A stretch of DNA of 64,000 nucleotides from the IMG/VR virus record IMGVR_UViG_3300046804_004538, positions 7,212 through 71,211 of that record; one strand, written 5' to 3'. Each line of letters begins with the position of its first letter. Within the stretch, counting starts at the first letter, position 1. Position numbers and translations under genes: made by a program. Source of the stretch: a virus. Below, one piece after another: positions 63,334 through 64,000 of this stretch. The notes below the pieces were generated by a model. That model saw nothing but the letters and a program-made list of their open reading frames with translations. It did no database searches and was not told where the DNA came from.

Positions 63334-63426
63334 ATATTGAAGTGTTCTGCTGTTCACAGATCGGGAATTCCAGCCCTCAAAGTCTTGTTAAACTTTTACA
63401 TGCCACCCTAAACAACACTTCAATAT
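63334..63426 (-). ncRNA. Inter-tRNA long-stem RNA element 1
   Basis: 13/13 terminal inverted repeat ATATTGAAGTGTT...AACACTTCAATAT fills the whole spacer. Confidence 0.6.
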
Positions 63427-63501
63427 GGCCGGTCCTGAGAGAATCGAACTCCCACCTGCGGGTCCGTAGCCCGCCGTAATTATCCATTTTACTAAAGACC
63501 G
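63426..63501 (-). tRNA. tRNA-Arg(ACG)
   Basis: Loop CTACGGA, GCCA end. Confidence 0.95.
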
Positions 63502-63502
63502 T

Positions 63503-63584
63503 TGGTGGGTTGAGTAGGGATCGAACCTACTTGCCGAAGCCACGGGTTTACAGCCCGCTGCCCTACCATTAGAGCATTCAACCC
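63503..63584 (-). tRNA. tRNA-Tyr(GTA)
   Basis: Loop CTGTAAA, variable arm GC-TTCG-GC, CCA. Confidence 0.95.
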
Positions 63585-63592
63585 AATAACAC

Positions 63593-63668
63593 TGGCAGGG
63601 AGTATAGGATTCGAACCTATGCATGTCGGAATCAAAATCCGATGCCTTACCAACTTGGCGAACTCCCA
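63593..63668 (-). tRNA. tRNA-Gln(TTG)
   Basis: Loop TTTTGAT, U1.U72 mismatch, GCCA end. Confidence 0.93.
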
Positions 63669-63671
63669 ACA

Positions 63672-63795
63672 ATATTAGAATTGCAGTCTGCACTATTTGC
63701 TATGCTCAACGGAATGACCGGCCGGCTTTACCGTTTGTGTACATAGTTACGCAGGCATGATCAAGCCCATGGCTTACAGACTGCAAATCTAATAT
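63672..63795 (-). ncRNA. Inter-tRNA long-stem RNA element 2
   Basis: 18/19 terminal inverted repeat ATATTAGAATTGCAGTCTG...CAGACTGCAAATCTAATAT. Confidence 0.6.
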
Positions 63796-63869
63796 GGCTG
63801 CTCAGGTAGGGATCGAACCTACGACACACGGATTAACAGTCCGCTGATCTACCTCTGATCTACTGAGCA
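63795..63869 (-). tRNA. tRNA-Asn(GTT)
   Basis: Loop CTGTTAA, GCCA end. Confidence 0.95.
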
Positions 63870-63875
63870 TCATTT

Positions 63876-63953
63876 TGGCGACATGTACGGGATTCGAACC
63901 CGTGGTCTCCGCCGTGACAGGGCGGCGCATTAGGCCAACTATGCTAACATGCC
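63876..63953 (-). tRNA. tRNA-Asp(GTC)
   Basis: Loop CTGTCAC, GCCA end. Confidence 0.95.
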
Positions 63954-64000
63954 ATATTGAAGCACACTGGGACTCCATTGGAGTTAATTATCTTTGGAAC

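What the first reader, a model, noticed from the sequence alone, without database searches (positions are those of the whole stretch)
63334..64000. Family of long-stem RNA cassettes punctuated by tRNAs, built like the tmRNA intervening segment
Seen: the Arg-to-Ala spacer (93 nt, 13/13 IR) and Asn-to-Gln spacer (124 nt, 18/19 IR) each begin at the final A of the upstream CCA and end 0-3 nt before the next tRNA. Both have ATATT...AATAT ends but unrelated, internally structured cores. A third seems to start at 63954 (ATATTGAAGCACAC); its arm resembles the tmRNA spacer arm ATCAAAAGCACAC (42961). Most other tRNA spacers are under 30 nt. Inference: tRNA processing releases stable stem-closed cargo RNAs (possible antitoxin mimics, decoys or guides). 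The same CCA-stem-5'end geometry offers a route by which the tmRNA became permuted.
Basis: partly seen in the sequence, partly recalled or inferred. Interest (0 to 1): 0.78.

Follow-up and report, generated by a model that had tools for sequence, protein, structure and literature searches.

The report
Clamp-closed RNA cassettes between phage tRNAs
Between the tRNA genes of this uncultured lake phage sit small folded RNA modules, each closed by a long stem that bridges one tRNA's end to the next tRNA's start; they belong to large, uncatalogued, phage-only RNA families of unknown function.

Summary
The tRNA array is on the minus strand.

**The three elements**
- Arg-to-Ala spacer: 92 nt, 15/15 inverted repeat.
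- Asn-to-Gln spacer: 126 nt, 24-nt arms.
- The truncated element before tRNA-Asp.

All three are stem-closed RNAs with compensatory base changes in relatives. None matches Rfam 15.

**The clamp.** The ATATTGAAR/YTTCAATAT stem encloses 121 unrelated core clusters among 183 unique cassettes. G.U pairs outnumber A.C mismatches 185 to 7 in the tRNA sense, so the stem is selected as RNA.

**Gain, loss and exchange.** Cassettes are present, absent or swapped at the same junction in near-identical phages. The Arg-to-Ala core also fills the excised spacer of two-piece tmRNA genes in related phages.

**The Asn-to-Gln core.** It is a separate, widely conserved RNA (72 viral stretches). Its apical loop always carries a perfect palindrome (43 of 43 variants), which suggests it forms homodimers.

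**Not established**
- Release as stable RNAs is inferred, not shown.
- The function is unknown.
- The tmRNA-permutation idea is not supported.

This scan has found the same family before on other DNA (e1-5827571, e1-6218443, e1-5649103, e1-5904666, e1-6064131).

The parts
63334..63425 (-). Arg-to-Ala cassette (core family A), 92 nt. The clamp arms are 63425-63413 and 63346-63334. The A of the upstream CCA (63426) can pair with the last U (63334).
   Evidence: The inverted repeat is 15/15. The fold has z = -2.8. Homologous cores occur in tRNA spacers and tmRNA spacers of relatives: 99.5% of cells pair, against at most 56% in slid controls, and 3 pairs show compensatory changes. The cassette is absent in L003, L010, L012 and L017, and replaced by other cores in L005, L008 and L011.
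63669..63794 (-). Asn-to-Gln cassette (core family N), 126 nt. It has a closing stem of about 20 bp, a conserved three-way core, and an apical palindrome CCGGCCGG at 63725-63718.
   Evidence: The fold has z = -5.3. The core pattern hits 72 viral stretches. 96% of cells pair against 31-47% in slid controls, and 20 of 35 pairs show compensatory changes. The covariance model scores it at 129 bits. A palindrome is present in 43 of 43 unique variants.
63954..64000 (-). The 3' part (47 nt) of a Lys-to-Asp clamp cassette (core family T), cut off by the end of the contig.
   Evidence: It is 100% identical to L003 9162-9209 and 97.9% identical to the 74-nt cassettes of L004 and L005. In the family alignment, 5 of 27 predicted pairs show compensatory changes.
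42961..43027 (-). Intervening segment of the two-piece tmRNA gene, 67 nt. It is a hairpin-closed module between the acceptor piece's CCA and the GGGGG 5' end, with arms AAAGCACA / TGTGCTTT.
   Evidence: Sequence. The tmRNA scores 158 bits on RF01850 and 152 bits on RF04321. The terminal stem has 13 pairs. Relatives' tmRNA spacers hold core family A (L272) and the core of clamp cluster 11 (L270).
63259..63333 (-). tRNA-Ala(UGC). Its 5' end abuts the Arg-to-Ala cassette.
63426..63501 (-). tRNA-Arg(ACG). Its encoded CCA abuts the Arg-to-Ala cassette.
63593..63668 (-). tRNA-Gln(UUG), 3 nt after the Asn-to-Gln cassette stem.
63795..63869 (-). tRNA-Asn(GUU). Its encoded CCA abuts the Asn-to-Gln cassette.
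63876..63953 (-). tRNA-Asp(GUC). Its 5' end abuts the truncated third cassette.

Best explanation
The spacers are self-contained structured RNA modules, co-transcribed with the phage tRNAs on the minus strand.

**Geometry.** Each module lies exactly between a mature 3' CCA end and the next RNase P cleavage site. A long helix closes it, bringing those two ends together.

**Inferred release.** RNase P cuts at the 5' end of the downstream tRNA. A second cut at or just after the upstream CCA, followed by trimming, frees the module. That second cut would be made by host RNase E, or by host RNase III acting on the stem. The product would be a hairpin-closed RNA of 60-130 nt, and both neighbouring tRNAs would remain intact.

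**Two designs coexist.**
- A nearly constant 'clamp' stem (CCA-UAUUGAAGCACAUU ... AGUGUGUUUCAAUAU-GG) that accepts over a hundred unrelated cores. The Arg-to-Ala and Lys-to-Asp elements are of this kind.
- One strongly conserved core (the Asn-to-Gln element) that carries many different stems and probably dimerises through a palindromic apical loop.

**Movement.** Recombination gains, loses and exchanges cassettes between any CCA|G junctions, including the excised spacer of the two-piece tmRNA gene.

**Shown:** the structures, selection at the RNA level, the junction geometry, the exchange between junctions, and restriction to phages.

**Inferred:** the processing enzymes, the stability of the products, dimerisation, and any function of the cores.
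For: **Structure under selection in all three window elements**
- Family N: 96.0% of cells pair, against 31-47% in slid controls. 20 of 35 pairs have compensatory changes. 0 of 500 shuffles reach the observed covariation score.
- Family A: 99.5% of cells pair, against at most 56% in slid controls. 3 pairs are compensatory.
- Family T: 5 of 27 pairs are compensatory.

**Selection acts on the RNA, in the tRNA sense**
- At the clamp positions the search pattern did not force (11-17), 115 oriented cluster representatives show 185 G.U-type pairs against 7 A.C-type mismatches.
- Those same positions are conserved in sequence across 121 core clusters.

**Modularity**
- 183 unique clamp cassettes fall into 121 core clusters.
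- Four family N members carry the clamp stem, while the rest carry other stems.

**Exchange between junctions**
- The Arg-to-Ala junction holds core A in the window and L004, another core in L005 and L008, a third in L011, and two tandem cassettes in L007. It is empty in L003, L010, L012 and L017.
- Core A also sits in the tmRNA spacer in at least 8 sequence variants.
- The core of clamp cluster 11 sits in the L270 tmRNA spacer.

**Association with tRNA arrays**
- 71 of 72 family N stretches have a same-strand tRNA within 600 nt. In 57 of 72 the next tRNA lies within 30 nt.

**Restriction to phages**
- Of 45 hits in bacterial genome contigs, only 3 have extended arms, and all 3 lie in dense tRNA arrays on MAG contigs.

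**Palindromic loop in family N**
- 43 of 43 unique variants carry one, with at least 16 different palindromes. The mean longest palindrome is 7.8 nt, against 4.9 nt in shuffles.
- It is also present in the divergent member that the covariance model found.

**Expression (weak)**
- Contigs from RNA libraries cover cassette A (run X17, record 28) and part of N together with the third element (run X15, record 16).

**Published context**
- Passages seen in PMC11915505 state that permuted tmRNA transcripts are cut by tRNA processing enzymes and that the intervening sequence is absent from mature tmRNA.
Against: - No read-level evidence shows discrete ends or accumulation. One search gives contigs only, and DNA may be present in those libraries.
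- Only 94 of 192 unique clamp cassettes have an ARAGORN tRNA flush at one or both ends. The other 98 sit in arrays next to non-tRNA units that start with GG and end in CCA. 'Between tRNAs' is therefore too narrow a description of the family as a whole.
- Family A covariation rests on one split between two subfamilies, so it amounts to few independent events.
- A leader locked in a helix up to position -1 may be a poor RNase P substrate. That would favour a first cut inside the stem over simple end processing (this point is from recall).
- Neighbouring tRNAs separated by 1-10 nt are evidently processed without any cassette, so the cassettes are not needed for tRNA maturation.
- No function is indicated for any core.
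Confidence: 0.6

Rival explanations
1. The stems are only processing or insulating hairpins, for example host RNase III sites that separate the RNAs of a polycistronic precursor. On this view the cores are filler with no role of their own.
For: - The long, near-perfect stems of 13-24 bp sit at RNA borders.
- The clamp sequence is conserved whatever the core, as expected for an enzyme recognition site.
- None of 5 related phage genomes, 4 of them at least 96% complete, encodes RNase III. A host enzyme would therefore have to act, which a generic dsRNA site would allow.
- From recall: RNase III takes part in T4 tRNA precursor processing.
Against: - The cores are conserved and keep their helices through compensatory changes.
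- The family N core is nearly invariant across 56 unique sequences while its stem sequence changes freely, the reverse of what a pure stem function predicts.
- tRNAs 1-10 nt apart need no hairpin.
- The junctions are empty in close relatives.
Confidence: 0.15
2. They are selfish insertion elements, resembling MITEs or rRNA intervening sequences. They spread at the DNA level into CCA|G junctions and are tolerated because RNA processing removes them.
For: - They have terminal inverted repeats.
- They are present or absent at identical junctions in phages whose neighbouring protein is 92-99% identical.
- They occur as tandem and multiple copies within one locus: L168 has 4, and L170 and L202 have 3 each.
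- Two copies of one core family occur in L202.
- The same core occurs both in tRNA spacers and in tmRNA spacers.
Against: - Two empty-versus-filled comparisons show no target-site duplication: Arg-to-Ala in L003 against the window, and Asn-to-Gln in L012 against L010.
- There are 121 different cores behind one pair of arms. A MITE family would conserve the whole element.
- The 185 to 7 excess of G.U over A.C shows that the arms are kept as an RNA helix on one strand, not as DNA repeats.
- The cores covary.
- I did not systematically search the loci for a transposase.
Confidence: 0.2
3. They are decayed tRNA genes, or chance hairpins in AT-rich spacers.
For: - Some cores in relatives contain T-arm-like hairpins: GGGTTCGATTCCC in L011 and GTGGTTCGAATCCAC in L170.
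- Two other long spacers of this window are tRNA-like.
Against: - The three window cores give no tRNA or other Rfam match at E up to 1.
- They are conserved with covariation.
- The arm pattern occurs in 0 of 100 shuffles of the window.
Confidence: 0.03

Closest known systems
Intervening sequence (IVS) of circularly permuted, two-piece tmRNA genes (passages seen in PMC11915505; Keiler et al. 2000 seen only as a cited reference)
   Same: The segment lies between an encoded CCA end and the next 5' G of a tRNA-like domain. It is absent from the mature RNA and is removed by tRNA processing enzymes. Here the same core families physically occupy both tmRNA spacers and tRNA spacers.
   Different: Bacterial tmRNA spacers are not described as carriers of a shared clamp with swappable structured cores. 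The passages I saw in the paper mention only single cases that hold a tRNA or a repetitive element. The window's Arg-to-Ala and Asn-to-Gln cassettes lie between ordinary tRNAs, not inside a tmRNA.
Small stable RNAs encoded in coliphage tRNA clusters: T4 species 1 and 2 (rnaC, rnaD) and the T5/BF23 stable RNAs
   Same: They are non-tRNA RNAs of roughly 100-140 nt, encoded inside a T4-type phage tRNA operon and cut from the same precursor. Their function is unknown.
   Different: Homology was not tested, because I held no sequences for them. No GenBank phage record matches cassette A or N. I recall no description of a shared clamp stem with over 100 cores, nor of exchange with tmRNA spacers, for those RNAs.
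RNase III-excised intervening sequences of 23S rRNA and RNase III processing hairpins of phage polycistronic transcripts (recalled)
   Same: They are stem-closed insertions in a stable-RNA precursor, sporadically present or absent among close relatives, and removed without harming the flanking RNA.
   Different: Cleavage by RNase III was not tested here. The cassettes sit at RNA borders rather than inside a helix of the host RNA. Their cores are conserved and covary.
GOLLD and ROOL RNAs of phage tRNA islands (passages seen in PMC12286853)
   Same: They are phage ncRNAs of unknown function beside tRNA arrays that form homo-oligomers through kissing loops kept by covariation. A fragment of the GOLLD 5' part lies in one cassette-bearing locus (L170, 71.7 bits, below the gathering score of 150).
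   Different: The cassettes are 60-130 nt, against roughly 600-800 nt or more. There is no sequence or model match. Dimerisation of family N is inferred from palindromes only.
PeSL promoter/stem-loop cassettes of T4-like phages (passages seen in PMC4122927; PMC2839356 seen as a search listing only)
   Same: They are short conserved stem-loop motifs in T4-type genomes, thought to promote modular shuffling by recombination.
   Different: PeSLs are a promoter plus a short GC stem-loop that flank protein genes. The clamp has no such promoter layout, closes a 30-100 nt structured core, and sits at RNA ends.

Membership tests
Clamp-closed cassette family (defined in this scan; not in Rfam) | The stem starts at the A of an encoded CCA and ends at position -1 of the next RNA's 5' G. 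| tested here: met
   Met for the Arg-to-Ala cassette. Met for the third element at its 3' side, and at both sides in L004 and L005. The Asn-to-Gln stem starts at the A and ends 3 nt before tRNA-Gln.
Clamp-closed cassette family (defined in this scan; not in Rfam) | Conserved arm sequence UAUUGAAR-YRYAYU ... AGUGUGYUUCAAUAU. | tested here: inconclusive
   The third element fits: GTGTGCTTCAATAT in the window, and the full arms in L004. The Arg-to-Ala cassette has the outer 8 bp, but its inner arm is GUGUU/AACAC instead of GCACAUU. The Asn-to-Gln stem shares only AUAUU/AAUAU.
Family N (conserved core GUAAGC..UAACUAUG..CAUAGCAAAUAGUGC) | The covariance model built from 56 unique members scores the window element. 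| tested here: met
   129.1 bits, E = 9.8e-28. The window row was part of the seed alignment, so this match is by construction. The independent member L016 scores 69.8 bits.
tmRNA intervening sequence | Lies between the acceptor piece's CCA and the 5' GGGG of the coding piece of a permuted tmRNA gene. | tested here: not met
   The finding's cassettes lie between ordinary tRNAs. Homologues of core A do meet the feature in relatives, and the window's own tmRNA has a different hairpin module there.
RNase III processing site | A double-stranded stem of about two helical turns that is cleaved by RNase III. | not testable with these tools
   The stems are 13-24 bp. Cleavage cannot be tested here. 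No phage-encoded RNase III was found in 5 relatives.
MITE-like transposable element | Terminal inverted repeats, a target-site duplication, and near-identical copies. | tested here: not met
   Inverted repeats are present. Two empty-versus-filled comparisons show no duplication. There are 121 distinct cores among 183 unique elements. G.U exceeds A.C by 185 to 7.
Any Rfam 15 family (including self-cleaving ribozymes, Y RNA-like, 6S and tRNA) | A covariance model match. | tested here: not met
   No match on any cassette at E up to 1 in window 59500-64000, at gathering score in L003, L007 and L011, or at E up to 0.05 in 8 cassette-rich loci totalling 58 kb.
T4 rnaC/rnaD and T5/BF23 stable RNAs | Sequence or structural homology to those RNAs. 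| not tested
blastn of cassettes A and N against 50,697 GenBank phage records found nothing.

The most novel reading that the evidence does not exclude
The clamp is a universal RNA 'socket'. Any small structured RNA placed between its arms can be plugged into any CCA|G junction of a phage stable-RNA operon, whether a tRNA spacer or a tmRNA spacer. It is then expressed at tRNA-like levels and released by the host's own tRNA-end machinery. On this reading these lake phages carry an RNA-level counterpart of an integron. It would be a fast-exchanging library of over a hundred aptamer-like or decoy RNAs, used against host defences or to retool translation. Some of them, such as the Asn-to-Gln RNA, would act as symmetric homodimers.
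Probability: 0.2. Interest if true: 0.85.

Novelty: new variant of a known kind. Interest (0 to 1): 0.68.

Why it matters
If the cassettes are released and functional, T4-type lake phages express a large and rapidly exchanged repertoire of small structured RNAs that no database lists. They would do so through a simple design that reuses tRNA-end processing.

- **An open-ended class.** The one-off 'stable RNAs of unknown function' of classical coliphages would become a broad class of RNAs.
- **An unexpected link.** tRNA operons and the excised spacer of two-piece tmRNA genes would be connected as alternative hosts for the same modules.
- **A tractable test case.** The Asn-to-Gln RNA is small and conserved, and may form homo-oligomers, in the same genomic setting as GOLLD and ROOL.
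- **A possible tool.** The clamp might serve for expressing defined small RNAs from tRNA operons.

If the cassettes prove to be only tolerated insertions, they would still be an unusual case of selfish elements confined to RNA borders.

Tried and rejected
**Rfam.** No family explains any cassette.

**MITE reading.** I looked for a target-site duplication in two empty-versus-filled comparisons and found none.

**Palindromes as a general cassette feature.** Rejected. Among 121 core representatives, 19% carry a palindrome of 8 nt or more, against 15% in shuffles; at 6 nt or more it is 50% against 50%. The palindrome signal is specific to family N.

**Full clamp at tmRNA acceptor ends.** The pattern CACCTCCACCATATTGAA gave 10 viral hits. 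All lie in sequence without a tmRNA and look like chance matches inside coding DNA. The pattern was too narrow, because acceptor stems vary. An unbiased look at five relatives' tmRNAs was the informative test.

**Phage-encoded RNase III.** 0 of 5 related genomes have a match, and the control rings in 8 of 14 known genomes.

**Link to the RNase H-like gene (PF04308, 62608-63075) inside the tRNA cluster.** Only 28 of 115 clamp loci hold it within the fetched stretch, and 18 of 58 loci of at least 10 kb. The comparison is confounded by relatedness among the phages, so I draw no conclusion.

**Bacterial genomes.** 42 of 45 pattern hits are chance matches, with no tRNAs and no extended arms.

**RNA evidence.**
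- All four runs are Logan contigs, which cannot show ends, strand or abundance.
- The run X16 contig that joins 63335 to 63426 is the cassette-less allele, as in L003. It is not evidence of splicing.
- Parts of the stretch without RNA-contig cover mean nothing.

**GenBank phages.** There is no match to cassette A or N. The 4-kb region matches only single tRNAs.

**Literature.** Five searches ran and one failed on a short term. None returned a paper describing constant-stem cassettes between phage tRNAs. Subscription journals, including the older T4 and T5 literature, are not in the library, and supplements were closed.

**Possible MotA-box resemblance (TGCTTCA) in the 3' arm.** Dropped, because most cassettes have TGTTTCA.
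Full report
**Setting**

The window is the last 64 kb of a 71-kb IMG/VR virus contig. It encodes baseplate wedge proteins of the T4 type. It also encodes a two-piece tmRNA of the betaproteobacterial family (RF01850, 158 bits) and 19 tRNAs. All of these RNA genes are on the minus strand.

In RNA order, the end of the window reads: [cut-off element], Asp, 6 nt, Asn, 126 nt, Gln, 8, Tyr, 1, Arg, 92 nt, Ala, 10, Thr, 7, Met. 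An RNase H-like ORF follows (PF04308), and then more tRNAs.

**The observation**

- *Arg-to-Ala spacer.* It is closed by a perfect 15-bp inverted repeat that includes the CC of the CCA and the GG of tRNA-Ala.
- *Asn-to-Gln spacer.* It is closed by 24-nt arms that are 88% complementary.
- *Fold energies.* Both spacers fold better than shuffled sequence (z = -2.8 and -5.3).
- *Chance control.* The arm pattern is absent from 100 shuffles of the window.
- *Third element.* It cannot be completed in this genome. Its 47 nt are identical to the 3' part of a complete cassette in L003 and nearly identical to the 74-nt Lys-to-Asp cassettes of L004 and L005.
- *Other long spacers.* Two other long spacers are not of this kind. 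Trp-to-His (105 nt) is a long-arm tRNA with a UAU anticodon loop (tRNA-Sec model 27.9 bits; cloverleaf). Ser-to-Ser (90 nt) is a degenerate tRNA-like hairpin with a GGTTCGAATCC loop.

**Relatives**

The RNase H-like protein retrieved 206 related viral stretches, of which 80 were kept, at 63-99% identity. These show that the cassettes come and go.

| Junction | State | Where |
|---|---|---|
| Arg-to-Ala | window's core | L004 |
| Arg-to-Ala | a second core | L005, L008 |
| Arg-to-Ala | a third core, with a T-arm-like hairpin | L011 |
| Arg-to-Ala | two cassettes in tandem | L007 |
| Arg-to-Ala | an added HNH endonuclease gene | L006 |
| Arg-to-Ala | empty (1-6 nt) | L003, L010, L012, L017 |
| Asn-to-Gln | empty | L006, L012 |

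Two empty-versus-filled comparisons show no target-site duplication.

**The Asn-to-Gln element (family N)**

- *Distribution.* A pattern built from its core found 72 viral stretches. Of these, 71 have a same-strand tRNA within 600 nt, and in 57 the next tRNA follows within 30 nt. The most common upstream neighbour is tRNA-Glu.
- *Conserved core, variable stem.* In 56 unique sequences the core is nearly invariant, but part of that invariance was imposed by the pattern. The closing stem changes sequence freely, and in four members it is the ATATTGAAGCACA clamp.
- *Covariation.* On a four-helix structure, 96.0% of cells pair, against 31-47% when partners are slid. 20 of 35 pairs show compensatory changes, and 0 of 500 shuffles reach the covariation score (RNAalifold gives 19 of 30).
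- *Prevalence.* A covariance model found family N in 14 of the 80 bait-selected relatives. One of these (L016, 69.8 bits) is a divergent member the pattern had missed. It keeps the core motifs and shows a compensatory change in the otherwise invariant helix.
- *A new point.* The apical loop always holds a perfect 6-10 nt palindrome. This is true of 43 of 43 unique variants, with at least 16 different palindromes. The mean longest palindrome is 7.8 nt, against 4.9 nt in shuffles. A hairpin with a tetraloop has no reason to keep its loop self-complementary. I therefore infer a symmetric loop-loop contact between two copies, as in the homo-oligomeric GOLLD, ROOL and OLE RNAs of the same genomic neighbourhood (passages seen in PMC12286853). 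This inference is untested.

**The clamp family**

- *Diversity.* Among 183 unique cassettes, blastn groups the cores into 121 clusters.
- *Conserved arms.* Arm positions 11-17, which the pattern did not force, are conserved (GCACAUU on the 5' side, AGUGUGU on the 3' side). Conservation stops abruptly at position 18.
- *RNA-level selection.* At positions 11-17, G.U-type pairs outnumber A.C-type mismatches 185 to 7 when read in the tRNA sense. The helix is therefore maintained on the transcribed strand as RNA, not as a DNA repeat.
- *Flanks.* Only 94 of 192 unique cassettes are flush with an ARAGORN tRNA. The others alternate with non-tRNA units that begin with GG and end in CCA.
- *Phage restriction.* In 596 Gb of bacterial genomes the pattern gave 45 hits. 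42 look like chance. The 3 with extended arms lie in dense tRNA arrays on MAG contigs.
- *Family T, the third window element.* 5 of 27 pairs are compensatory.

**The Arg-to-Ala core (family A) and the tmRNA link**

A core pattern found 24 viral stretches. Most are tmRNA genes in which the same core, closed by GAAGUGUU/AACACUUC, fills the space between the CCA and the 5' GGG of the two-piece tmRNA. Their acceptor stems differ. Four other sequences, counting the window, are tRNA spacers.

Between the two settings, six of the substitutions fall in three base pairs and keep them paired. 99.5% of cells pair, against at most 56% in slid controls. This amounts to few independent events.

In five relatives examined without selection, the tmRNA spacers were as follows (with for the cluster):
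- family A (L272);
- the core of clamp cluster 11 (L270);
- a bare 28-nt hairpin with the inner clamp sequence GAAGCAUAUU/AGUGUGUUUC (L273);
- two other modules (L271, L274).

The window's own tmRNA spacer (43027-42961) is a 67-nt module closed by AAAGCACA/UGUGCUUU. Because the tmRNA fits the bacterial two-piece family, I read the permuted gene as inherited and its spacer as colonised, not the reverse.

**Mechanism**

*Shown:* the geometry, the RNA-level structure, the modular exchange, and the restriction to phages.

*Inferred:* release by RNase P at the 3' border, plus a cut at or after the CCA. Passages seen in PMC11915505 say that tRNA processing enzymes split permuted tmRNA precursors. 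A first cut by host RNase III inside the stem is an alternative, and the phages have no RNase III of their own (0 of 5).

Contigs from RNA libraries cover cassette A and part of family N, but they cannot prove transcription or show ends. The function of the cores is unknown.

**Novelty**

- No Rfam 15 family matches.
- No GenBank phage record matches cassettes A or N.
- Five literature searches returned no description. The library lacks the older subscription literature on T4 and T5 stable RNAs.
- Earlier agents of this scan reported the same clamp family on other genomes, including its presence in tmRNA spacers. I re-derived those points independently.
- I added four things: the presence/absence alleles; the G.U to A.C asymmetry; the finding that the Arg-to-Ala core is mainly a tmRNA-spacer module; and the palindromic loop of family N.

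I class the finding as a new variant of a known kind, namely stable non-tRNA RNAs and excised spacers of phage stable-RNA operons.

Noticed in passing
window 62359-62454 (minus strand): The Trp-to-His spacer is an undetected 95-nt long-variable-arm tRNA. Its anticodon loop is CUUAUAA (UAU) and its D-loop has 4 nt. The tRNA-Sec model gives 27.9 bits. ARAGORN calls the homologue in L054 Ile(tat).
   Followed up: partly
window 61671-61760 (minus strand): The Ser-to-Ser spacer is a degenerate tRNA-like hairpin: an acceptor-like 7-bp stem, a GGTTCGAATCC loop motif, and an ending of ACCC. This junction varies from 4 to 415 nt in relatives.
   Followed up: no
window 62608-63075 (minus strand): An RNase H-like (PF04308, YkuK-type) gene is embedded in the tRNA cluster. 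It is conserved in 206 viral stretches and belongs to phrog_11311, of unknown function. A role in RNA processing is conceivable but untested.
   Followed up: partly
L007 9013-9200; L017 8612-8797; L011 8782-9020: Relatives carry a further structured, ORF-free element of about 190-240 nt between tRNA-Asn and the family N cassette. It is absent from the window and has no Rfam match at gathering score.
   Followed up: no
L170 1-180 (minus strand); L168 13185-13378; L173 189-441: A fragment of the GOLLD RNA 5' part (71.7 bits, cut off by the locus end) and two group I introns (53.4 and 49.3 bits) lie in cassette-rich tRNA arrays.
   Followed up: no
L168 11190-12310; L170 1750-2500 (minus strands): In some arrays the clamp cassettes alternate with non-tRNA units of about 50-150 nt that begin with GG and end in CCA. 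Some of these units have T-arm-like hairpins.
   Followed up: no
L006 7985 region (Arg-to-Ala junction): A free-standing HNH-type endonuclease ORF is inserted next to a clamp cassette in the same junction. In L009 that junction holds a 1.5-kb insert that I did not characterise.
   Followed up: no
window 63754-63747 (P2 loop of family N): The second hairpin loop of family N often contains a palindrome as well (UGAUCA in most members, UUGCAA in some), but not consistently.
   Followed up: partly
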